Shown here: piece after piece, positions 35,501 to 46,630 of the stretch
Layout: each line of letters starts with the position of its first letter
Position numbering within the stretch: position 1 is the stretch's first letter
NCBI GenBank assembly: GCA_030693235.1
Contig: JAUYBE010000006.1
Coordinates: forward strand, 2,758 to 66,757
Direction of reading: 5' to 3'
From: a bacterium
GTDB taxonomy: Bacteria; Patescibacteriota; Minisyncoccia; UBA6257; UBA9933
DNA: 64,000 nucleotides
Made by a program: the position numbers and the translations under genes
Notes under the pieces: model-generated
Database searches by the model: none
The model's input: only the letters and a program-made list of their open reading frames with translations
Told to the model about the DNA's origin: nothing

Positions 35501-35908
35501 ATGATAGATAATAAAAAAGAGTTAAAAATAAGCGTTAAGGCAGTTTTTCGCGCTAAAAATAAAGTTATGTTTCATAAATCTAAAGATGGTGTTCGTGATT
35601 TACCAGGCGGCCATATAGAGTTTGGGGAAACAATTATAGAAGCATTAAAAAGAGAGCTAATGGAAGAAATTAATTTTGATTTAAATAACGATCCAAAATT
35701 ATTGCATGTATGGACATATATTTGTAAAAACAAAAATATTCACAGGGTTTATATAGTTTATTTAATTGATATTGGCAATAATCCTAAAAAATTTGTCCAT
35801 CAAGAAGTAAATGATATGGAGTTTGTTTGGTTAAAAAAAGAGAAAGTTAAGGAACAATGTTTTTTGCCAGAAATGGAAAATTTATTATTGAAGGCGTTCG
35901 ATATTTAG
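35501..35908 (+). CDS. NUDIX hydrolase
   Basis: The Nudix box is 'GGHIEFGETIIEALKRELMEEINF'. Confidence 0.7.
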   Translation: MIDNKKELKISVKAVFRAKNKVMFHKSKDGVRDLPGGHIEFGETIIEALKRELMEEINFDLNNDPKLLHVWTYICKNKNIHRVYIVYLIDIGNNPKKFVHQEVNDMEFVWLKKEKVKEQCFLPEMENLLLKAFDI

Positions 35909-35930: not shown

Positions 35931-37568
35931 ATGGATTATTTAATAGGAGTAGAATGTAAGGTACGAGGATGTATTACACGAGGCGATTTTAATGACATTT
36001 GTCATTCTATTGAAAAAGATTGGGGGAGATTTGATGAGGGTTTTGAGTTGGTTATATTTTTTAAAAAAGATTATGATTTGCGCCTTAATATAAATAAAAA
36101 GGGTTGTATACTAAGCGCACAAAAAAATATTAATAAGAGGTGGGGGATAAAACAAAAAACAGAATTCTTATTTACTATAGACGAAGTCCCTAAAATTATT
36201 AATCTTCTTAATCAAATTGGATTTACAAAGGGTTTATTTTCTCCTTGTTATCGTTATGACGCAAGTAAATCAAATCGGTTCATTTCTTTTAAGTTTGATA
36301 CAAAAATCGGAGATTTATTTGAATTGGGCGAGGTAATAAATAATAAAAAGAGCTTTAGCGGGGTTTATCATAAACTTTTGAATTTAACCCACATTCATAC
36401 ATTAAATCCATGGGCACAAGAAATTTATAGAAAAATTATTAAAAATTCTTGGGAAGGGGCAGAAGAGGAATTTTTATTAATAAATAATAAATTGCATCCA
36501 TTAATTCAAAAAGCCATTAATAAATCAGAGTGTAAAAAAATAATATCACCCACAAATCAATCAATTTCTTCAATATTAAAAAATAAGTCCAATGATTATA
36601 CAAAATTAGAAAAAATATTTAAAAAATCAACAAAAACCGAATTATTAAACTGGAAACCGGGCTCTTTAAATAATTACAAAGAAACAGTTTCAATTATAAT
36701 CCCAACATTTAATTCGTTAAAAACATTGAAATTAACCCTCCATTCAGTAGAGGGGCAAAAAATTAATAGAAGTCAAAAAAAATATGTTGAAGTTATTGTT
36801 ATTGATGATGGATCAACCGATGGAACTGAAAAATTTTTAGAAAATAAAAATTTTTCATTCAAATTTAGATATATTAAACAAAATAATTTAGGGCGTGTTT
36901 ATGCTAGAAATCTTGGGGCATCAATAGCAATTGGAAATATTTTAATATTTATTGATGCAGATGTCATTCTTGATAAATATTTTCTCAATGAACATATTAG
37001 AAGACATCATTATTTAGATAATATTATTGTCGTTAGTTTTAAAGAAAACATATCGCCAAAAGAAAAATTAATAAAAGATGTTTTAAATGGAATCAATCTT
37101 CAAAGACCAAACATTACAAAGGATTTTAGATTCGAGAAAACGGTTCAAAAAGAATGGTTAAGAATGCATAGACACGTGAGAAATATAGAAGTGAGAAACA
37201 TAAAAATAATCAAAGAAACAAATAATTTTAAAGAGTTTGGAGAAGATCGCATATTGGGCGTTTGGGATTTGCCGGCAATGGTAGTTACTTGCGCTGTTTC
37301 ATTAAAAAGAAAAAGTTTTAAAAATATTGGTGGGTTTAACCTGCAATTTAAGGGGTGGGGGATGGAAGATACTTTCATGGGAGCTTGTTTAATCGCCAAT
37401 GGAGATTATGTAATCCCCTGTTTTTCGACAGGAGTTTTCCATATAAACCATACTGCTAAATCAAAATCTAAACAAAGTAAAATATCAGAATTTAATAGAA
37501 ATGTTCTTGTATATCTTGATCTTATTAATAAACCAATCTATGAGGTGTTTAAAGAAAGGTATTATTAA
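35931..37568 (+). CDS. Glycosyltransferase family 2 with a ~230-aa N-terminal extension (possibly CYTH-like)
   Basis: C-terminal GT2 motifs are 'VSIIIPTFNS', 'VIVIDDGSTDGT' and 'FIDADV'. The N-terminal region is unassigned; 'GVECKV...LRLNINKKG' only weakly resembles the CYTH ExExK/RxR strands. Confidence 0.55.
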   Translation: MDYLIGVECKVRGCITRGDFNDICHSIEKDWGRFDEGFELVIFFKKDYDLRLNINKKGCILSAQKNINKRWGIKQKTEFLFTIDEVPKIINLLNQIGFTKGLFSPCYRYDASKSNRFISFKFDTKIGDLFELGEVINNKKSFSGVYHKLLNLTHIHTLNPWAQEIYRKIIKNSWEGAEEEFLLINNKLHPLIQKAINKSECKKIISPTNQSISSILKNKSNDYTKLEKIFKKSTKTELLNWKPGSLNNYKETVSIIIPTFNSLKTLKLTLHSVEGQKINRSQKKYVEVIVIDDGSTDGTEKFLENKNFSFKFRYIKQNNLGRVYARNLGASIAIGNILIFIDADVILDKYFLNEHIRRHHYLDNIIVVSFKENISPKEKLIKDVLNGINLQRPNITKDFRFEKTVQKEWLRMHRHVRNIEVRNIKIIKETNNFKEFGEDRILGVWDLPAMVVTCAVSLKRKSFKNIGGFNLQFKGWGMEDTFMGACLIANGDYVIPCFSTGVFHINHTAKSKSKQSKISEFNRNVLVYLDLINKPIYEVFKERYY

Positions 37569-37576
37569 TTTAAAAT

Positions 37577-38002
37577 ATGGATTTTAATAAATTTATCAAA
37601 GACAAGAGCATAACAAATATAAATATAAATATAAATGTGGTTGCTCTCATAAGGCGCGATAATAAAATTTTAATGGGATTAAGAGAGTATAAAAAAGGAA
37701 ATCCTTTATGGACTTTTCCTGGCGGACGTTGCGAGGAGGGGGAAACAATTAAAGAGGCTCTTATTAGGGAAATTGAAGAGGAAATCGGTGCCACTAAATT
37801 TAATATCTTGCGTTTTATTGGAGAAAAATTAGGAGTTCATAATGGCGATAAAGTTTATTTTTTTGAATGCAGTATCAAGAATCAGGAACCAAAATTAATG
37901 GAACCTAAAAAATTTATTAAATGGAGTTGGATTTCTTTAGATAATTTACCACCTAATCTAATTGATCAAAATGATGTTAAATTTTTAAAATTATTACTCT
38001 AA
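37577..38002 (+). CDS. NUDIX hydrolase
   Basis: The Nudix box is 'GGRCEEGETIKEALIREIEEEIGA'. Confidence 0.7.
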   Translation: MDFNKFIKDKSITNINININVVALIRRDNKILMGLREYKKGNPLWTFPGGRCEEGETIKEALIREIEEEIGATKFNILRFIGEKLGVHNGDKVYFFECSIKNQEPKLMEPKKFIKWSWISLDNLPPNLIDQNDVKFLKLLL

Positions 38003-38037
38003 AACATCGTTTGGAATAATTAATGCGTGTGGACATT

Positions 38038-38215
38038 ACCACATGGTCTTGACATTTTCATAAATATTAGTATCATTGATAATAGTAGATTTGGTCTTTA
38101 AAAAATAACGGTTTTCAACCGTTTATATAAAGAGTGTGATGGGCGTTATGACTATAAAAACCAAAAGCTAATAGCCAACAGCTAAAAGCTAATAAAATGG
38201 AGGTGAAGATTAAAG
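38038..38215 (+). promoter_or_regulatory. Promoter/leader element, copy 2, ending in an abortive 'atgaattag' (M-N-stop)
   Basis: It is a duplicate of 33506-33670, but its start codon is followed immediately by TAG. The next real ORF begins 220 bp later at 38434. Confidence 0.5.
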
Positions 38216-38433
38216 ATGAATTAGAAAAATATCTTTAACAGTTTTTATCCTACCAAATTCCCTTCATTCCGGTTACTTATTTTACTATTGATTGCGACTT
38301 GCTCCGTTAGAATTTTGTAATAAAATCTTTAATGGGGTATAATTTAAAAAATTGGGGTTGATATAAAAAAGTGAGATGTTGGTCATATTTTTTTATAAAG
38401 AAGATTAATAAATTAAAAATTATTTAAAGGATT

Positions 38434-40029
38434 ATGGATTTAAAGTCTCAACAAAATAAACTTATAATTAATATTATTGATTATGATTTGGATAAAATGT
38501 GGCAAGCGCATCCTTTAATTAATCAGCTTAGAGCGCGATTGCATCAATTTTTGCCGAAAGGAGTATATGACCCGCAAGATTTAGAACATCAGGCATTGTT
38601 TAGATTAACCACTTTTGACCCCAAGGATATTACGGATGAGATTATTCAGCTTGTGATAGAAGAACAATTTTTAATAGTGCAAGACAGATTGAGTAAGTCG
38701 GATTTTGATTTGGAATATATATTTAGGGGATTAACGGGTAAATACCCGGACTTAAATATTAATAATAGGCTGGAATTATGCAAAGAAAATAATAAATTAG
38801 TGGCGAAGAGTGATAATCGATCGTTTATTGTGGAATTTAGAACAGTGCAGGACGATAATATTATTTCTTTATTTACGAATGAGTTGCATTATATTCATCA
38901 AGGCAGGCCAAAAGGAGAAACCTTTGCTTTTTATTTTGTCGGCGATAATATTCCATGGGCGATAGAAACAACCGAGCCGTCGGTGATATCAAAAGATTAT
39001 AAACGAGACGCCTTATTGGCTAATGGCGTTGATCCAAATAAAGCCGTTGAATTAACGCGTTTTTATACTTTGCCCGGCGCGCCGCTGAATGCGATTTCTT
39101 TGATGGATGGCCTTATATCAAAATATTATGAGTCAAAAGGAATTGAGGCGTTGTTTACAACCACAATGCCGATGTATTCAAAAACAAAAAGCGCTACCAT
39201 AGCCGGCGGCATAAATAAACCGCTTTTAGTTAAAGATTTACGCCATAAATTTATTCCGGAAAAAATTAAAGAGAAAATTTGTTACAGGCACACAACAACA
39301 ATTCCTGAACAACAAAAAGAAATTGATTTTATTACGACCCATCCAAATTTTCCCACCATGTTGGTTGTTGAAGTTTATAAATTGATTAGCGAACCAAGTT
39401 TGAAGCCGTTAAAGGTACTGGAAGATGGGAAAAAAGTTATTTATGTCAAACAACGCGACGTTAAGATTGAAAAAGAAATAAAATTTCTCGTAAAAGATGT
39501 TAATGCCGTTTTAGAAAAAATTAATAAAGAAAATATTACTAAATTTTCCAGAACAGAATATATACGAGATATTATTTACGGTTCTGCCGATGATAATCGC
39601 AAAATAAGATTGCGATTGGAAAATAATTTTGAAAACCTTTTAGTAGAAGCTGTTTATAAGCATAAAATTGATTACACCGATGATATTAAAGCAGAGGTGG
39701 AAGAAATAATATACAAAGGCGATCAAATAAAAAATGCTTTAAGTGCTATTAAACAACAAGGCGATTTTAAAGAAGAAAATTCTTACGAGAAAATCAGAGC
39801 GGTTTATTCGGGAGATAAAGTTGAAATCGTTTTGGATATTTATCCGTATGGCATTTGGCTGGAGATAGAAGGCGACCCGGAAAAAATATGGGAGGCGGCG
39901 GGGAAGTTGGGATATAAAAAAGAAGACGGTATAGTGTTAAATGCGGATGAGCTTTATTTGGAATGGAATAAAAAACAAGGACTTAAAGAATTTTGGGATG
40001 TAAGGTTTGGTTTGACCGGTGAAAAATGA
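38434..40029 (+). CDS. Large protein with a C-terminal CYTH (triphosphate tunnel metalloenzyme / CyaB-like) domain and an unassigned ~360-aa N-terminal region
   Basis: The C-terminal 'KIEKEIKFLVKD' is the ExExK start of CYTH. 'RKIRLRLEN', 'KAEVEEIIYKGD' and 'VEIVLDIYPYGIWLEIEGD' follow the CYTH strand pattern (RxR, ExE, E-x-E). Confidence 0.5.
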   Translation: MDLKSQQNKLIINIIDYDLDKMWQAHPLINQLRARLHQFLPKGVYDPQDLEHQALFRLTTFDPKDITDEIIQLVIEEQFLIVQDRLSKSDFDLEYIFRGLTGKYPDLNINNRLELCKENNKLVAKSDNRSFIVEFRTVQDDNIISLFTNELHYIHQGRPKGETFAFYFVGDNIPWAIETTEPSVISKDYKRDALLANGVDPNKAVELTRFYTLPGAPLNAISLMDGLISKYYESKGIEALFTTTMPMYSKTKSATIAGGINKPLLVKDLRHKFIPEKIKEKICYRHTTTIPEQQKEIDFITTHPNFPTMLVVEVYKLISEPSLKPLKVLEDGKKVIYVKQRDVKIEKEIKFLVKDVNAVLEKINKENITKFSRTEYIRDIIYGSADDNRKIRLRLENNFENLLVEAVYKHKIDYTDDIKAEVEEIIYKGDQIKNALSAIKQQGDFKEENSYEKIRAVYSGDKVEIVLDIYPYGIWLEIEGDPEKIWEAAGKLGYKKEDGIVLNADELYLEWNKKQGLKEFWDVRFGLTGEK

Positions 40030-40516
40030 AAATATGAAAAAGAATGATAAAAATTTCTATTTAACTAAGACGGAAATTCAAAAGATTAAAAAATCTAAAA
40101 CATTTTATGAATTGGTTATTATCGGACGCGGAATTCTTTATCGCATGAGTGATCCAATTTCGCAAGTTTGCGGTCCAATTTCTACTGGCGGAAACGGTTC
40201 GGTGGAAGAAAATCTTGGCACACTTGCTAAAGCAATAAAATTTCTGACAGAAAAAGAAATCAGCGTTTTTAATCAATTGCCGTTTGAAAAGACATTTGAT
40301 AAAATAATGAGAAATTATAAAACAAGCAGTTATGACACTCCTATTTTAGAAGAATTTTACGGGCCAGTATTTGAATCCGGAAAAATAAAAAACGTTTATT
40401 TTCTTCCGGGATGGAGAAAATCAGTAGGCGCCAGATGGGAATATAATTACGCAAAAAAATTGGGGATTAAAACTATTTTTTTACCCAAAAATTGGATTAA
40501 AAACTATAAAAAGTAA
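40019..40516 (+). CDS. Nucleoside 2-deoxyribosyltransferase-like / SLOG-superfamily Rossmannoid protein (tentative); overlaps the CYTH gene by 11 nt
   Basis: 'ELVIIGRGILYRMSDPISQVCGPISTGG...EEN' and the C-terminal 'LPGWRKSVGARWEYNYAKKLGIKTIF' resemble Nuc_deoxyrib_tr/DUF4406-type motifs. Confidence 0.4.
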   Translation: MKNENMKKNDKNFYLTKTEIQKIKKSKTFYELVIIGRGILYRMSDPISQVCGPISTGGNGSVEENLGTLAKAIKFLTEKEISVFNQLPFEKTFDKIMRNYKTSSYDTPILEEFYGPVFESGKIKNVYFLPGWRKSVGARWEYNYAKKLGIKTIFLPKNWIKNYKK

Positions 40517-40684
40517 AAAGTTATAAAGACAAAAACAAAGGGAGATAGTATTATCTCCCCTTTAATTTTATCGGTTCACTGTATTGTTTTAATATTTTTG
40601 GATTATAAACGATTTCTTTTCCATATTTGTTCCAGATTTTCTTCTTCTTTTTTAGCTCATCTTCAATAGATAAAATTATTTTTA

Positions 40685-41030
40685 TCACGTCGTTAAGTAT
40701 TTGGTTATTTTTTTTTGTTTTTTGTATTTAGCAGTTTCATAAAATTGTTGGAAAAATTTTGTTATTTGCTTTTTTTGTTTTTTAGCGCCGGTTGTTACGA
40801 ATAAATAGCGCAACAGCGAATTCCCTAAATAATTTTTTAAATCAAGCATTTTCTTTAATGGTTTCTGGTTTATTATTGCCGGCGCTAAAATTTCTTTCAG
40901 AAAATAAAGAGAAGTCGCCTCTATTATTTGGGAAAGCGGTTTTTTATATTGTTTTTCCATTATTTCAAACAGTACCATATGAGAAATCTCATGAGCGCTT
41001 ATAAAAAGAACATCGCTCTCTTTTTTATCA
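40685..41030 (-). other. Orphan open frame without a start codon containing 'SAHEISH' (HExxH) and a Lys-rich tail; possible fused/remnant fragment downstream of the lnt remnant
   Basis: The frame is open immediately after a TAA with no ATG/GTG/TTG before the HExxH motif. It is not Lnt-like. Confidence 0.25.
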
Positions 41031-41778
41031 AAGAGAGTTTTTAAAATTGATTAAAACGCTTGAATTATAGCGTTTGTTGTTTTCTCGCCGGTCGCCGGTT
41101 GCCAAAAGATTGGCATTTATTTCTTTGGCAAAATCGCGCCAAAATTTCAGGTCTGATTCCCGCGGCGAGTCATTAAAAATATCTTCCGGCAAAACTAAAA
41201 AATCAATTTTATTGTTTATTATTTCATTTTTGATTTTTTCCAAATCGGAATAATTAAAATTTTCGTTGGTTGAAACAGCGGCGATTTTAAAATAGTTTTC
41301 AAAATTTTTATAGGCTTCAGAATTTTTTTGAAGTTGGAAAATTGAAATTTGCCAGGCGCTAAACAATACTATGACTATGACTATGATGATGACAATCATT
41401 TTTCGGAGGTCAAACCTCTTAATATTTAAAATAATCGCTGCGATTAAAATATTTATCAAAGCTACAAAAAAAATAAGTGAGATTAATCCGCCAACAGAAG
41501 CCAGTCCTAAAAACGGCGATGAACCCAAAGAATTGCCGGCAGTTATGATGTAGGTCGGCAACAGGGAATACCTTGCTTGAAGATGGTCAAAAAATGTCCA
41601 GAGGAAAGGCAATGATATTAACAATAATCATTGACTATTGACAATTGACAACGGTAAAAATCGGATTAATCCGCGTTTAATGATGAAAACGGAAACCGGC
41701 AATCCCAAAAATCTAAAAAAAATTGAAAGGCAGAAACGCCAAAATTCCCAAAATTACCGAAAGAATGGGCAAGAACAT
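41028..41778 (-). pseudogene. lnt: Degraded apolipoprotein N-acyltransferase (Lnt)-like gene. The N-terminal piece is at 41713-41778, the central piece is ORF 41028-41624, and the C-terminal half of the CN-hydrolase domain is missing.
   Basis: The N-terminal fragment 'MFLPILSVILGILAFLPFNFF*' is Lnt-like (LAFxPF). It is separated from the central piece by a frameshift at an A8/T8 run (41715-41722) and an in-frame TGA (41631-41633). The central ORF has Lnt TM5-7 and the start of the CN-hydrolase domain ('KIAAVSTNE', 'FLVLPED', 'YNSSVLI') but stops after ~100 aa of the ~250-aa domain. Confidence 0.5.
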
Positions 41779-43821: not shown

Positions 43822-44922
43822 ATGATTAAGTATGAAAAGAAAATTGAAGCCGGAATTGATTACAAAAAAGCTGTTTTTTGGGCCAGGGAATTTCGGATGC
43901 CTTTGTTTTGGATTGGCGATAAAGAGCGCAAAATCTTCCAAAAGAACAACCTGGTTTTATATAGAAATTCAGTGATTGTCATGTTTCATCTGAACGGGCG
44001 GGAAGTAGTTTGGGCGGAGGAGGGGCTTAATTATTTTTCCAGCTTCCAGAAGATTGAAGATTACGAAAAGAAAGTTAAGGAGTCGTTTTTAGCAATCGAT
44101 AAATTTCTGGCTGACCTGAAGAAAATAAACCCAAAAAAATTAAGCAACTCGGAGCTGGAGGCCTGGTTCGTCAAAACGCTAAAATTGCTGACCAATTTCA
44201 GCAATATTTATACTCGGACAGAACCCGCTTTTATGGCTGAGTTTGAGAAATTAAAATCAAATGAGAAGGCGATAAAAAAATTAGGTCAATTGCGATTTGC
44301 TTTGCGGGAAAAATGCGACCCGGTTTGGCAGGTTTTAATGGGTAAGATTTGCGGCCAAATCGCTCGAAAAGCTGGACGGCGAGGACTTGACCTTTTCTTT
44401 TATACAAAAGAAGAATTGATTGGGCTTTTAAAGGGGAAAGCAGTTTCGGAAAAAGTGATTAGCAATCGTCGGGGAGGATACGCTTTAATTTCTTTGGCTA
44501 ATGGAGAAAAAATATTAAAGACTGGCAATGGGTTCAGAAAAATTTACCGGTTACTCTTGACTCAACCAAAGAAAATAGTTGAAATTAAGGGACAGACGGC
44601 CTGCCAAGGCAAGGCCAGGGGTAGGGTTAGGATAATTTTGCACAATAAAAAAGATATTTCCAAGGATGTGGCCAGATTTAGACAAGGAGAGATTTTAGTT
44701 ACGGAAATGACCCGGCCGGATACTGTTATGGTTTGTCGCCAAGCCGCCGCCATAATCACTGATGAGGGAAGTATCACCAGTCACGCCGCCATAATTTCGC
44801 GCGAGCTGGGCATTCCCTGCGTGGTTGGCACCAGGCACGCAACGCAGATTTTAGAAACCGGCGATTGGGTAGAAGTGGATGCCACCAAGGGATTAGTGAA
44901 GATAATAAATAAGAATAGTTAA
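43822..44922 (+). CDS. Protein with a C-terminal PEP-utilising-enzyme mobile (swivel phosphohistidine) domain and an unassigned N-terminal region
   Basis: 'VTEMTRPDTVMVCRQAAAIITDEGSITSHAAIISRELGIPCVVG' is the PEP-utilizers signature with the phospho-His. Confidence 0.6.
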   Translation: MIKYEKKIEAGIDYKKAVFWAREFRMPLFWIGDKERKIFQKNNLVLYRNSVIVMFHLNGREVVWAEEGLNYFSSFQKIEDYEKKVKESFLAIDKFLADLKKINPKKLSNSELEAWFVKTLKLLTNFSNIYTRTEPAFMAEFEKLKSNEKAIKKLGQLRFALREKCDPVWQVLMGKICGQIARKAGRRGLDLFFYTKEELIGLLKGKAVSEKVISNRRGGYALISLANGEKILKTGNGFRKIYRLLLTQPKKIVEIKGQTACQGKARGRVRIILHNKKDISKDVARFRQGEILVTEMTRPDTVMVCRQAAAIITDEGSITSHAAIISRELGIPCVVGTRHATQILETGDWVEVDATKGLVKIINKNS

Positions 44923-44927
44923 AAATT

Positions 44928-45683
44928 ATGTCGGAAAAATTTAAGGAAATCATTGAAAAAAAGGAAAGCGTGCCGTTTGAAGCCGATATGCGGGTGGATT
45001 TTTTCCGTCATGGCAAGGTAAATTATACTGCGGAAGAATTAGCTTCCGCCAAATATGAAGGCCAGCTGGGAGATGTCGGCAGAAAGCAGGTAGAAGCAGG
45101 GGCGCAAAAATTAGCCCAATCAATTGATAGGGAGCGAGAGTTAGTCGTGCTTTGGGCCAGTCCCAGGCAAAGAGCTCAAGAGTCGGCCGAAATTATCGCT
45201 GAAATTTTAAAAGCAGAGAATATCGGCGTTATTCAGAAATTGGGTAAAAAAGATATCAGGAAAATAGGAGCTTTAAGAGATGTTGGCTTGAGCCCGGAAT
45301 TTATGAAGGCCAAAGGACCCGACCGGGATTGGATGGAATTTTGGGATAAAGCTGATAATTTGCCCGAGAGCACGGAAGCTCCCGAGAGTCTTAAAGAACG
45401 TTCATTGAGAATATTGGCTTACTTGGAAAAAATTTCCCGCTTGATTTCACCACCGGCTGATAAGAAATTACATTTTATTTGCGTGGGGCACGAGGAAAGC
45501 TTTAAAGAGTTGTTGAGCGAGGGTTTTGGTCAGGGCGTTGAAAAAGAGAGTCGGCCGGCCAATGCGGAAACCATGAGACTGGATATTTTTCATTCCGGCG
45601 CCAAGCCAGAATTTAGGTTAAAATATAGAGATGAGGAAGCAGATTTAAAATTTGATTCGGCCGAAAGAAAGATCTATAAATAA
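44928..45683 (+). CDS. Histidine phosphatase superfamily (PGAM branch) protein
   Basis: 'VDFFRHGK' (RHG) and the second His in 'FICVGHEESF'. It is tightly packed between the two PEP-synthase-like genes. Confidence 0.55.
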   Translation: MSEKFKEIIEKKESVPFEADMRVDFFRHGKVNYTAEELASAKYEGQLGDVGRKQVEAGAQKLAQSIDRERELVVLWASPRQRAQESAEIIAEILKAENIGVIQKLGKKDIRKIGALRDVGLSPEFMKAKGPDRDWMEFWDKADNLPESTEAPESLKERSLRILAYLEKISRLISPPADKKLHFICVGHEESFKELLSEGFGQGVEKESRPANAETMRLDIFHSGAKPEFRLKYRDEEADLKFDSAERKIYK

Positions 45684-46630
45684 TGAAAATTTACACTAAA
45701 CAATTTAAACAATTAAGTAAAGTCGATGTGGCCATCGCCGGCGGGAAAGGGGCGAGCTTGGGTGAGATGGCGCAAGCAGGCTTTCTTGTTCCGCCGGGTT
45801 TTGTAGTTTTGGCGAGCGCGTTCGAGAAATTTTTGGAAGAGACGGATTTAAACGTGGAGATGAGCGCGATTTTAAAAAAGGTGAATTACAAAGATATTAA
45901 TTCGGTTGATAAGGCCTCAAATCAAATCGGGGATTTGATCGCTGACGCGGATTTTCCTAAAGACATTGGTAAGGAAATAAAAAAAGAATTTGGCAAGATG
46001 GGTGTCAAATTTGTGGCCGTGCGTTCTTCCGCCACGGCCGAGGACTCCTCGATTGCCTCTTGGGCAGGGGAGTTGGAAAGTCATTTGAATGTTGATGAAA
46101 AAGACTTATTTGAGGCGGTTAAAAAATGCTGGGCTTCTCTTTTTACTCCCCGCGCCATATTTTATCGTTTTGAAAAGAATTTGCAAAAGCAAAAAGTTTC
46201 AGTGGCGGTGGTGGTGCAGGCAATGGTGCAGTCGGAGGTTTCGGGCGTTGCTTTCACCGTGCATCCCGTAACCGAAGACAGAAATCAGATGGTTATTGAA
46301 GCGGGTTGGGGTCTCGGCGAGGCGATAGTGGGCGGAAAAATCACGCCTGATACCTATATTGTCGCCAAAGACAGCTTAGAAATTTTGGATAAAAATATTT
46401 TTTCCCAGGAGATAAAAATCGTTAAAGACGGTTTGGGCACAAAAGAAGAAGCGGTTGAAAAGAGCGAACAGGAAAAACAGAAGCTGACTGATGAAAAAAT
46501 CATTGAACTTGCCAAAATTTGTAAAAAAATAGAAGAGCATTATGGATTTCCGCAAGATATTGAATGGGCGTTTGAAAAAGAAAAATTTTATATTGTCCAA
46601 AGCAGGCCAATAACCACTTTAGTTGAATAA
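45683..46630 (+). CDS. PPDK_N-like PEP/pyruvate-binding (ATP-grasp) domain protein, PEP-synthase N-terminal homologue
   Basis: 'DVAIAGGKGASLGEMAQAGFLVPPGFVV' and 'FVAVRSSATAEDS...SWAGELES' are the hallmark of the PEP synthase/PPDK N-domain. Confidence 0.65.
   Translation: MKIYTKQFKQLSKVDVAIAGGKGASLGEMAQAGFLVPPGFVVLASAFEKFLEETDLNVEMSAILKKVNYKDINSVDKASNQIGDLIADADFPKDIGKEIKKEFGKMGVKFVAVRSSATAEDSSIASWAGELESHLNVDEKDLFEAVKKCWASLFTPRAIFYRFEKNLQKQKVSVAVVVQAMVQSEVSGVAFTVHPVTEDRNQMVIEAGWGLGEAIVGGKITPDTYIVAKDSLEILDKNIFSQEIKIVKDGLGTKEEAVEKSEQEKQKLTDEKIIELAKICKKIEEHYGFPQDIEWAFEKEKFYIVQSRPITTLVE

What the first reader, a model, noticed from the sequence alone, without database searches (positions are those of the whole stretch)
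38434..40516. CYTH-domain protein translationally coupled to a SLOG/nucleoside-deoxyribosyltransferase-like protein
A 531-aa protein has an unassigned N-terminal region and a C-terminal CYTH (triphosphate tunnel) domain with ExExK, RxR and ExE strands. It overlaps by 11 nt a 165-aa Rossmannoid protein with Ndt/DUF4406-like motifs.

CYTH enzymes act on nucleotide triphosphates. SLOG-like domains are nucleotide or nucleotide-derivative binders in conflict and signalling systems. The pair could be a nucleotide-signal generator/sensor or a nucleotide-modifying module. This is inference from domain types only.
Basis: partly seen in the sequence, partly recalled or inferred. Interest (0 to 1): 0.6.

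Follow-up and report, generated by a model that had tools for sequence, protein, structure and literature searches.

The report
Mom-like acyltransferase fused to triphosphatase
A conserved gene of tiny candidate-phyla-radiation (CPR) bacteria, publicly labelled "adenylate cyclase" or "hypothetical", fuses a relative of the phage Mu DNA-modifying enzyme Mom to a triphosphate-cleaving domain and often sits beside a nucleoside-transferase-like gene, so it looks like an undescribed nucleotide-modifying module, not a signalling system.

Summary
Both ORFs are real: ORF1 at 38434-40029 (531 aa) and ORF2 at 40019/40034-40516.

The CYTH call is confirmed by fold (SaTTM, E 1.5e-9, TM 0.78) and by a full motif set. 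It is the triphosphatase type, not the class IV cyclase type.

ORF2 is a DUF4406 / nucleoside-deoxyribosyltransferase-superfamily protein. All 30 homologues match that family. Its fold was not modelled.

The 11-nt overlap depends on a GTG start. Homologues and the NCBI call favour ATG 40034, 4 nt after the ORF1 stop.

The main new result concerns the "unassigned" N-terminus. It is a helical subdomain plus a GNAT domain of the Mom family. Mom's H58, Y59, R111 and S124 align with invariant residues. Mom's D149, R151 and its DNA-binding insertion are missing.

The same helical+GNAT module occurs elsewhere fused to Ham1 NTP pyrophosphatase, cytidylate kinase or P-loop kinase domains.

DUF4406 is the only conserved neighbour, seen in 6 lineages including the window and in two orientations. 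A divergent clade has guanylate kinase and Ham1 genes instead.

Best reading (0.45): an (amino)acyl-transferase acting on free nucleotides, coupled to triphosphate cleavage and N-glycosidic processing.

The signalling generator/sensor idea is not supported. No chemistry was tested.

The parts
38049..38076 (+). Promoter-like site (TTGACA-16-TATCAT) in the 430-nt gap upstream of ORF1. A second site lies at 38315-38343.
   Evidence: 11 of 12 and 10 of 12 consensus matches. The number of such sites in the region is not above the shuffle expectation, so this is weak evidence.
38434..40029 (+). ORF1, 531 aa: helical subdomain + Mom-like GNAT + CYTH. It is NCBI MDP3014936.1, annotated as a hypothetical protein.
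   Evidence: The family has more than 190 clusters of about 530 aa. Those that carry a lineage name are almost all Patescibacteria/CPR. 74 columns are invariant among 41 sequences that go down to 44% identity.
38434..38763 (+). Residues 1-110: helical subdomain with the invariant motif D46-P-Q48-D-L-E-H52-Q53-x-L-F-R57-L-T-T.
   Evidence: helices 27-37, 47-58, 68-87. In most of the related proteins in the representative set that span this part, it occurs together with the GNAT part. No Pfam or PDB match.
38764..39453 (+). Residues 111-340: GNAT-fold domain of the Mom family. Invariant H152, Y153, R209, N219 and S222 align with Mom H58, Y59, R111, N121 and S124.
   Evidence: - Model pLDDT 90.8, pTM 0.87.
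- PDB hits are all GNAT acetyltransferases.
- Viral hits are better (E 2e-6) and include annotated Mom and large 'endonuclease-like' phage proteins.
- hhalign against a 13-sequence Mom alignment gives E 1.5e-4 over 97 columns.
- 14 of 41 homologues give sub-threshold Pfam Mom hits.
- Relatives P0179, P0267 and P0301 pass the Mom gathering score.
39460..40026 (+). Residues 343-531: CYTH / triphosphate tunnel domain of the triphosphatase type.
   Evidence: 7ns9 E 1.5e-9, TM 0.78, 23% identity. (motifs). (subtype determinants: no HF motif, RxR kept, no W before RxR, ExE and DxY present).
40034..40516 (+). ORF2, 160 aa from ATG 40034 (165 aa from GTG 40019): DUF4406, nucleoside 2-deoxyribosyltransferase superfamily. 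Invariant C46-G-P-I-S-T-G-G and W127..S130.G132..W135-E136.
   Evidence: - DUF4406 at 28.6 bits against a cut-off of 22.
- P0121 is a 100% identical 160-aa NCBI call.
- 30 of 30 homologues hit DUF4406 and 9 of 30 hit DUF1937.
- Profile hit to 1t1j, aligned over the W..S.G...E motif.
- phrog_355 'nucleoside 2-deoxyribosyltransferase', E 1.1e-7.
40540..40569 (+). Terminator-like hairpin GGGAGATA-GTAT-TATCTCCC followed by CTTTAATTTT. It closes the two-gene unit.

Best explanation
ORF1 is a three-part enzyme found almost only in CPR/Patescibacteria. It has a conserved helical subdomain, a Mom-family GNAT transferase domain and a catalytically equipped CYTH triphosphatase domain. ORF2 is an Ndt-superfamily (DUF4406) N-glycosidic-bond enzyme.

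Proposed mechanism. The CYTH tunnel grips the triphosphate of a free (deoxy)nucleoside triphosphate and, in most members, cleaves it. The GNAT site uses Mom-type chemistry, with Ser222 and Arg209 matching Mom Ser124 and Arg111. It moves an acyl or aminoacyl group onto an exocyclic amine of the base. The donor could be an aminoacyl-tRNA, as in Mom, or an acyl-CoA. ORF2 then swaps or releases the base from the resulting nucleotide or nucleoside. The pair would be a nucleotide-pool modification, salvage or clean-up module, not a signalling or defence system.

Shown: the folds, the domain families, the conserved catalytic residues, the fusion partners and the gene neighbourhoods.

Inferred: the substrate class (free nucleotide), the donor, the order of steps and any product.
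For: - CYTH fold and complete triphosphatase-type motifs.
- GNAT fold with Mom as the closest family. Viral Foldseek hits at E 2e-6 include annotated Mom, against about 4e-4 for generic GNATs in the PDB.
- hhalign to a Mom alignment gives E 1.5e-4 and places invariant H152/Y153/R209/S222 on Mom H58/Y59/R111/S124. The role of those residues comes from PMC13219725.
- Relatives found at E 1e-43 or better, and others, pass Pfam's Mom cut-off.
- Evidence for a nucleotide substrate from fusions: the same helical+GNAT module is fused to Ham1p_like (P0176, P0182), Cytidylate_kin (P0267, P0279, P0290, P0300, P0301) and P-loop kinase domains (P0155, P0160).
- Evidence from neighbourhoods: DUF4406 is the only conserved neighbour. 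It lies downstream on the same strand in the window and L006, and upstream and divergent in L001, L007, L008 and L079.
- In the divergent clade the next genes are Guanylate_kin, which overlaps ORF1's homologue, and then Ham1p_like (L074, L080).
- NUDIX, HIT and thymidine kinase genes recur nearby.
- ORF1 lacks Mom's helical DNA-binding insertion (no helix from 257 to 342).
- GNAT residues are invariant in all 41 sequences, whereas the CYTH acidic metal ligands are lost in about 6-10 of them and the basic phosphate-binding residues stay. This fits a core transferase with a phosphate-gripping accessory domain.
Against: - No biochemical data exist for this family.
- The window protein itself gets no Pfam hit to either Mom or CYTH.
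- The Mom relationship is remote: hhalign probability is only 52% and covers only the first half of the domain.
- Mom's D149 and R151 align with M245 and M247, so the chemistry may differ.
- NUDIX, Gmk and Ham1 are common housekeeping genes in compact CPR genomes, so their proximity may be chance.
- DUF4406 is absent within 6 kb in L015/L077 and absent in L078, L074 and L080.
- More distant DUF4406 homologues sit away from any ORF1 homologue.
- The full-length model has pTM 0.67, so the arrangement of the domains is not established.
- ORF2 was not modelled.
Confidence: 0.45

Rival explanations
1. ORF1 modifies a nucleic acid polymer, as Mom does. It would transfer an aminoacyl group from charged tRNA to adenine in DNA, or to a base in tRNA or rRNA. 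The CYTH domain would act as an RNA 5'-triphosphatase or an accessory binding domain.
For: Mom is the closest family, and its catalytic R111 and S124 and its H58 and Y59 are conserved. CYTH relatives include RNA triphosphatases (Cet1, mimivirus, ranks 36, 49, 50). A leucyl-tRNA synthetase gene lies directly upstream in L078. High conservation across CPR would suit an RNA-modification housekeeping role.
Against: - Mom's helix-turn-helix-like insertion, essential for its activity on DNA, is absent.
- D149 and R151 are not conserved.
- No conserved restriction or defence partner was found among the conserved neighbours, and there is no PADLOC hit.
- The fusion partners of the module (Ham1, cytidylate kinase) act on mononucleotides.
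- The closest CYTH structures are small triphosphatases rather than Cet1-type enzymes.
Confidence: 0.2
2. CYTH makes a cyclic or other nucleotide signal, and the SLOG-like ORF2 senses it.
For: Public annotations call homologues 'adenylate cyclase class IV'. CyaB structures are among the fold matches (ranks 11-16). Ndt/SLOG-type domains can bind nucleotides (general knowledge).
Against: - The HFxxxxExExK motif required for true class IV cyclases is absent (Q340, R341).
- The central Arg that cyclases replace is kept.
- The best matches are triphosphatases.
- ORF2 keeps the catalytic-type Glu motif.
- No conserved effector gene was found among the conserved neighbours, and there is no PADLOC hit.
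- This idea gives no role to the invariant GNAT domain.
Confidence: 0.06
3. The GNAT domain aminoacylates or acylates a non-nucleobase acceptor, as tRNA-dependent FemX or MprF-type transferases do. The acceptor could be a nucleotide-linked cell-wall precursor, a lipid or a protein. CYTH would bind the nucleotide-diphosphate handle, and ORF2 would be an unrelated salvage gene.
For: The PDB matches are protein N-acetyltransferases, N-acyl amino acid synthase FeeM and acyl-homoserine-lactone synthases. Other GNATs use charged tRNA on peptidoglycan precursors and lipids (PMC13219725). Glycosyltransferase genes lie upstream in the window.
Against: Viral Mom-type domains match better than any PDB GNAT. 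The Mom-specific residues are conserved. The fusion partners and neighbours are nucleotide enzymes rather than envelope enzymes. The glycosyltransferase neighbours are not conserved in other loci.
Confidence: 0.1
4. ORF1 and ORF2 have no functional link. The adjacency is leftover synteny in a compact genome, and each gene works alone.
For: DUF4406 is missing next to ORF1 homologues in about half of the loci that can be evaluated. Distant ORF2 homologues lie next to dCTP deaminase or an Lhr helicase instead.
Against: It is the only neighbour conserved across loci whose other genes all differ. It also occurs in two different arrangements, co-directional and abutting or divergent. That is hard to explain by inherited synteny alone. 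In addition, six short contigs carry the same longest-contig length for an ORF1 homologue and an ORF2 homologue.
Confidence: 0.15

Closest known systems
Phage Mu Mom (Pfam PF25680). A GNAT enzyme that moves glycine from Gly-tRNAGly to N6 of adenine in dsDNA (PMC13219725).
   Same: GNAT fold. Shared motif pattern HY ... EL-x-R-(9 residues)-N-x-x-S with identical spacing. Mom H58, Y59, R111 and S124 correspond to invariant H152, Y153, R209 and S222. Mom-type phage proteins are the best structural matches.
   Different: - No helix-turn-helix-like insertion.
- Mom D149 and R151 are replaced by Met.
- An extra, highly conserved 110-residue helical subdomain sits in front.
- A CYTH domain is fused behind.
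- The gene is cellular (CPR), not phage, with no restriction-evasion context.
- The window protein does not reach the Pfam threshold.
Triphosphate tunnel metalloenzymes of the SaTTM / NeuTTM / CthTTM type (CYTH, PF01928)
   Same: Eight-stranded tunnel fold (TM 0.78 to 7ns9). ExExK, RxR, K, ExKxR, DxY and ExE motifs. Triphosphatase-type determinants.
   Different: It is not a stand-alone protein of about 170 aa. It is the C-terminal domain of a GNAT fusion. One clade has lost the acidic metal ligands while keeping the basic residues.
Class IV adenylyl cyclase CyaB (the current public annotation of homologues)
   Same: The same CYTH fold (3n10 and 2fjt at E about 6e-7).
   Different: It lacks the HF motif four residues before ExExK and keeps the central Arg of RxR, both of which discriminate against cyclase function. 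The public name is probably wrong.
DUF4406 / DUF1937 / nucleoside 2-deoxyribosyltransferase superfamily (PDB 1t1j; phrog_355)
   Same: ORF2 passes the DUF4406 threshold. It shares the G-P-x-S/T-G loop and the W..S.G...E motif aligned to 1t1j.
   Different: It has an extra N-terminal segment of about 35 residues. It forms its own CPR subfamily. No member has a tested function, and the fold was not modelled here.
Cytokinin-type route: base modified at N6 on an adenine nucleotide, dephosphorylated, then the base released by LOG. This is an analogy only, from general knowledge.
   Same: The same three kinds of step could be encoded here: modification of an exocyclic amine (GNAT), removal of phosphate (CYTH) and N-glycosidic cleavage by a Rossmann-like enzyme (ORF2).
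   Different: No homology to isopentenyl transferases. ORF2 is DUF4406, not LOG (1 of 30 homologues gives a weak LOG hit). No product is known.

Membership tests
CYTH / triphosphate tunnel metalloenzyme (PF01928) | Eight-stranded beta-barrel tunnel fold | tested here: met
   7ns9 E 1.5e-9, TM (target) 0.78. 1yem, 2dc4 and 2een are similar. The model has pLDDT 88.5.
CYTH / triphosphate tunnel metalloenzyme (PF01928) | N-terminal ExExK plus basic RxR/K/KxR residues and the acidic ExE motif | tested here: met
   E346, E348, K350, R392, R394, K409, E452, K453, R455, D468, E477 and E479 are all present in the window protein. In the family, E348, R394, K409, E452 and K453 are invariant. E346 is kept in 30 of 41, E477 in 35 of 41 and E479 in 32 of 41.
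CYTH / triphosphate tunnel metalloenzyme (PF01928) | Pfam profile score above the gathering cut-off (23.2 bits) | tested here: inconclusive
   The window protein gets no hit at E<=0.1. Homologues P0011 (27.2 bits) and P0015 (26.6 bits) pass. 8 of 41 match at E<=1.
Class IV adenylyl cyclase (CyaB type) | HFxxxxExExK extension, and replacement of the central Arg of RxR by a small residue (PMC8233210) | tested here: not met
   the positions are Q340 and R341, and R392 and R394 are retained.
Thiamine triphosphatase type of CYTH | W/YxRxR motif that stacks the thiazolium ring | tested here: not met
   the sequence is K-I-R-L-R, with an aliphatic residue in place of Trp.
Mom family (PF25680) | GNAT fold | tested here: met
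   all top PDB matches are GNAT acetyltransferases; viral matches include annotated Mom (S4TTR0, E 6e-5) and 'NAT_SF' proteins.
Mom family (PF25680) | Pfam profile score above the gathering cut-off (27.1 bits) | tested here: not met
   The window protein gets no hit. 14 of 41 homologues hit below threshold (best 20.9 bits). Relatives reached by the ORF1 N-terminal profile do pass: P0179 31.5, P0267 30.0 and P0301 29.9 bits. Homology is therefore supported through intermediates, but this clade lies outside the curated model.
Mom family (PF25680) | Catalytic R111 and S124, plus H58 and Y59 (PMC13219725) | tested here: met
   One search aligns them with R209, S222, H152 and Y153. All four are invariant in 41 sequences.
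Mom family (PF25680) | D149 and R151, needed for Mom activity | tested here: not met
   they align with M245 (invariant) and M247.
Mom family (PF25680) | Helix-turn-helix-like insertion (residues about 175-209), essential for activity on dsDNA | tested here: not met
   no helix between residues 257 and 342. A beta-hairpin (272-287) and a low-confidence loop lie there instead. The hhalign alignment ends at residue 249.
Mom family (PF25680) | Gly-tRNAGly as donor and adenine N6 in dsDNA as acceptor | not testable with these tools
   This needs biochemistry.
DUF4406 (PF14359), Ndt superfamily | Pfam profile score above the gathering cut-off (22 bits) | tested here: met
   28.6 bits, although only residues 124-153 align; 30 of 30 homologues match, best E 1.6e-9.
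DUF4406 (PF14359), Ndt superfamily | Conserved Glu in the W/D..S/G.G...E motif (the position of the nucleophile in nucleoside deoxyribosyltransferases, from general knowledge) and the Gly-rich first loop | tested here: met
   C46-G-P-I-S-T-G-G and W127, S130, G132, W135, E136 are invariant; these align to the LPGWRDSAGIRRE motif of 1t1j.
DUF4406 (PF14359), Ndt superfamily | Rossmann-like three-layer fold | not tested
The profile hit to 1t1j is weak (E 0.043).
SLOG (LOG/DprA-type) superfamily | Profile match to a SLOG family | tested here: not met
   only 1 of 30 homologues touches Lysine_decarbox (LOG), at E 0.11.
Known anti-phage defence systems (PADLOC) | Match to any defence-system protein model | tested here: not met
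   no hit for either protein at E<=0.1.

The most novel reading that the evidence does not exclude
A cellular, vertically inherited branch of the Mom family uses charged tRNA to aminoacylate the exocyclic amine of free purine or pyrimidine nucleotides. The nucleotides would be held by interchangeable phosphate-handling domains (CYTH here; Ham1 or nucleotide kinases elsewhere). The Ndt-like partner would then release or transplant the modified base. CPR bacteria would thereby make a previously unknown class of N-aminoacyl or carbamoylmethyl nucleobases or nucleotides, as metabolites, cofactors or precursors of modified nucleic acids.
Probability: 0.12. Interest if true: 0.85.

Novelty: new variant of a known kind. 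Interest (0 to 1): 0.62.

Why it matters
Mom was shown only in 2026 to be a tRNA-dependent DNA-modifying GNAT, and it has been treated as a phage counter-defence enzyme. This study finds a strongly conserved cellular branch of that family in CPR bacteria, which depend on nucleotide salvage.

Its catalytic Ser and Arg are intact. It is always accompanied by a new helical subdomain. It is fused, in different lineages, to four kinds of nucleotide-phosphate enzyme. That pattern points to Mom-type chemistry on the nucleotide pool, which has not been described in the literature searched.

There is also a practical correction. More than 190 database clusters of this protein are labelled 'adenylate cyclase class IV', 'CYTH domain-containing' or 'hypothetical'. 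The cyclase label fails the published determinants, and the larger, better conserved half of the protein is not annotated at all.

Tried and rejected
- Sequence searches of ORF1 and of its family profile against PDB chains found nothing usable. Only fold comparison worked.
- hhalign of the N-terminal profile against the single Mu Mom sequence gave only a 23-residue match (E 0.12). It became informative only after a 13-sequence Mom alignment was built from phage records.
- A viral-contig scan with Mu Mom returned only near-identical Mu-like copies.
- The third homologous-protein search, run with the N-terminal profile, listed only the same family and gave no names for the wider family.
- The N-terminus of the neighbouring glycosyltransferase (35931-37568) looked CYTH-like by eye. 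Pfam and a local HMM search do not support this, so the idea was dropped.
- The defence-system reading was dropped: no PADLOC hits.
- Rfam found nothing in or near the locus.
- Literature searches for DUF4406, for Mom with CYTH, and for Mom with cytidylate kinase found no description of this architecture. Iyer et al. 2009 could not be read.
Full report
**Observation**

The two ORFs exist as described. ORF1 runs from 38434 to 40029 (+, 531 aa). ORF2 runs from 40019 to 40516 (+, 165 aa) if it starts at a GTG.

The ORF1 stop is the TGA at 40027-40029, and an ATG lies at 40034. NCBI calls ORF2 from that ATG (P0121, 160 aa, 100% identical, on a 228,450-bp MAG contig). The alignment of 30 homologues also starts there. 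The 11-nt overlap is therefore probably a start-codon artefact. The likely arrangement is a 4-nt gap.

A terminator-like hairpin follows ORF2 at 40540-40559. Promoter-like sites lie in the 430-nt gap upstream of ORF1. These consensus matches are no more frequent than in shuffled sequence.

ORF1 is NCBI MDP3014936.1, annotated as a hypothetical protein.

**The C-terminal domain of ORF1 is CYTH**

- The window protein gets no Pfam or NCBIfam hit.
- It belongs to a family of more than 190 clusters of about 530 aa. Those that carry a lineage name are almost all Patescibacteria: Parcubacteria, Minisyncoccia, Paceibacterota, Zambryskibacteria and Torokbacteria. Two genome-scan loci carry other bin labels (Gammaproteobacteria, Saccharibacteria). 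Some members are named 'adenylate cyclase class IV' or 'CYTH domain-containing'.
- Eight of 41 aligned members hit Pfam CYTH at residues about 345-481, best E 4e-6.
- An AlphaFold model built on the alignment has pLDDT 88.5. Its best PDB matches are triphosphate tunnel enzymes: SaTTM 7ns9 (E 1.5e-9, TM 0.78), 1yem and 2dc4. CyaB and plant and mammalian tunnel enzymes come next.
- All motifs are present: ExExK 346-350, RxR 392-394, K409, ExKxR 452-455, DxY 468-470 and ExE 477-479.

The subtype can be assigned with the determinants published for the family (PMC8233210). The domain lacks the HFxxxxExExK motif of true class IV cyclases; it has Q340 and R341 at those positions. It keeps the central Arg that cyclases lose. 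It lacks the Trp of thiamine triphosphatases. It is therefore a triphosphatase-type tunnel, and the public 'adenylate cyclase' label is probably wrong.

In a divergent clade (P0101-P0119) the acidic metal ligands are replaced, while the basic phosphate-binding residues stay. In that clade the domain probably binds but does not cleave.

**The 'unassigned' N-terminus of ORF1 is a Mom-like GNAT domain**

- Fourteen of 41 homologues give sub-threshold hits to Pfam 'Mom' at residues about 140-240.
- A separate model of residues 1-342 has pLDDT 90.8 and pTM 0.87. It shows a helical part (1-110) and an alpha/beta part (about 114-317).
- Against the PDB, every top match is a GNAT acetyltransferase, at E about 4e-4 and above.
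- Against predicted viral structures the matches are stronger, at E 2e-6. They include an annotated Mom and many 500-560-aa 'endonuclease-like' myovirus proteins. These are probably the Mom-endonuclease fusions described in jumbo phages (PMC7824862).
- I built a 13-sequence Mom alignment from phage records. hhalign against the ORF1 N-terminal alignment gives E 1.5e-4 over 97 columns.
- That alignment puts ORF1 H152, Y153, R209, N219 and S222 on Mom H58, Y59, R111, N121 and S124, using the paper's numbering. All five are invariant in 41 sequences. R111 and S124 are the residues shown to be essential for Mom catalysis (PMC13219725).

There are clear differences from Mom:
- Mom D149 and R151 align with Met.
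- Mom's helical insertion, essential for activity on DNA, has no counterpart.
- The window protein does not reach Pfam's Mom threshold.

**The wider family**

A profile of residues 1-342 was searched against 1.84 billion representative proteins. It found 168 proteins at E<=0.001.

Local domain mapping shows that the helical part and the GNAT part occur together in most of the hits that span them. CYTH is attached in only two 50%-identity clusters plus one fragment.

Other members carry a different attached domain:
- Ham1p_like: P0176 (52.6 bits) and P0182.
- Cytidylate_kin: P0267, P0279, P0290, P0300 and P0301.
- P-loop kinase domains: P0155 and P0160.
- An unidentified N-terminal region of 200-270 residues in many proteins of about 600 aa.

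Three of these relatives pass Pfam's Mom threshold: P0179 (31.5 bits), P0267 (30.0) and P0301 (29.9). This links ORF1 to the Mom family through intermediates. Two of them that I looked up lie among ordinary cellular genes.

All identified fusion partners are enzymes that handle the phosphates of mononucleotides.

**ORF2**

- It passes the DUF4406 threshold.
- All 30 homologues match DUF4406 and nine also match DUF1937.
- The family profile finds the DUF1937 structure 1t1j, aligned over the W..S.G...E motif.
- PHROGs gives 'nucleoside 2-deoxyribosyltransferase' at E 1.1e-7.
- The Gly-rich first loop and W127, S130, G132, W135 and E136 are invariant. This suits an active enzyme.

**Neighbourhood**

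Across 12 loci, the only gene family shared around ORF1 homologues is this DUF4406.

| Arrangement | Loci |
|---|---|
| DUF4406 abutting downstream, same strand | window, L006 |
| DUF4406 upstream, divergent | L001, L007, L008, L079 |
| DUF4406 absent within 6 kb | L015/L077 |
| DUF4406 absent | L078, L074, L080 |
| Contig ends at ORF1, cannot be judged | L005, L011, L012, L014 |

- In the divergent clade, the ORF1 homologue overlaps a guanylate-kinase gene, which is followed by a Ham1 gene.
- NUDIX, HIT, thymidine kinase and HD genes recur nearby. These are common genes, so this point is weak.
- Distant ORF2 homologues are not next to ORF1 homologues. One sits beside dCTP deaminase.

**Interpretation**

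The shown facts are the folds, the family relationships, the conserved catalytic residues, the fusion partners and the neighbourhoods.

From these I infer a nucleotide-directed module:
1. A Mom-type transferase modifies an exocyclic amine of a base on a free nucleotide.
2. The CYTH tunnel holds, and usually cleaves, that nucleotide's triphosphate.
3. An Ndt-like enzyme acts on the N-glycosidic bond.

The donor (charged tRNA or acyl-CoA), the acceptor and the product are unknown. I put 0.45 on this reading.

The rivals are:

| Rival reading | Confidence | Main evidence against |
|---|---|---|
| Polymer (DNA or RNA) modification | 0.2 | Missing DNA-binding insertion; mononucleotide-type fusion partners |
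| Non-nucleobase acceptor | 0.1 | Mom-type domains match better than other GNATs; neighbours are nucleotide enzymes |
| No functional link between the two genes | 0.15 | Only conserved neighbour, in two different arrangements |

The signalling idea fails on the cyclase determinants, on the catalytic look of ORF2, on the lack of conserved effector genes among the conserved neighbours and on the absence of PADLOC hits.

**Novelty**

Each domain family is known. I found no description of a Mom-like GNAT fused to CYTH, Ham1 or nucleotide kinases, nor of the conserved helical subdomain, in the searchable literature. One relevant paper could not be read. I rate the finding a new variant of a known kind.

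Noticed in passing
window 35501-35908 and 37577-38002 (+); 35931-37568 (+): Two NUDIX hydrolase genes flank a 545-aa protein. The C-terminal half of that protein is a family-2 glycosyltransferase. Its first 250 residues or so match no Pfam family. A CYTH-like appearance by eye was not supported.
   Followed up: partly
L005, L011, L012, L014 (3' end of the ORF1 homologue): In 4 of 12 genome loci the contig ends within 0-270 nt after, or just inside, the 3' end of the ORF1 homologue. This could be chance, masked sequence (runs of X were seen in L005) or an assembly-breaking element next to the gene.
   Followed up: no
L016:5884-6213 (+), Candidatus Micrarchaeota contig JAKASU010000001.1: An archaeal (DPANN) contig carries only a 110-codon open frame with the helical-subdomain motif LLDPQDLKHQVLFRLTTYDP. 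No GNAT or CYTH part was detected within several kb. It could be a fragment, a pseudogene or a stand-alone form.
   Followed up: partly
L066:395-1128 (Microbacterium phage Pickles13): A Mom-like 'acetyltransferase' gene is followed directly by a phage tRNA-Gly(ccc) gene. This fits the recently shown dependence of Mom on Gly-tRNAGly.
   Followed up: no
P0176, P0182, P0267, P0279, P0290, P0300, P0301, P0155, P0160 (proteins): Relatives of the ORF1 helical+GNAT module are fused to Ham1, cytidylate kinase or P-loop kinase domains. Many others, of about 600 aa, have an unidentified N-terminal region of 200-270 residues. Their organisms are not named in the library.
   Followed up: partly
window 38003-38433: The non-coding gap before ORF1 is unusually long for this compact genome, at 430 nt. 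It contains a hairpin at 38107-38123, probably the terminator of the upstream NUDIX gene. It has no Rfam match.
   Followed up: partly
window 41028-41624 (-): A 198-aa membrane ORF gives only a weak match to the end of the N-terminal domain of apolipoprotein N-acyltransferase (E 0.0046, below threshold). It may be a truncated or split Lnt gene.
   Followed up: no
window 43822-46630 (+): Three consecutive ORFs were read by eye. The first contains the motif TSHAAIISRELGIPCVVG, typical of the mobile domain of PEP-utilising enzymes. The second is a 251-aa ORF. The third resembles the N-terminal ATP-grasp part of pyruvate phosphate dikinase or PEP synthase. This looks like a split or rearranged enzyme. 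It was not checked with any tool (own reading).
   Followed up: no
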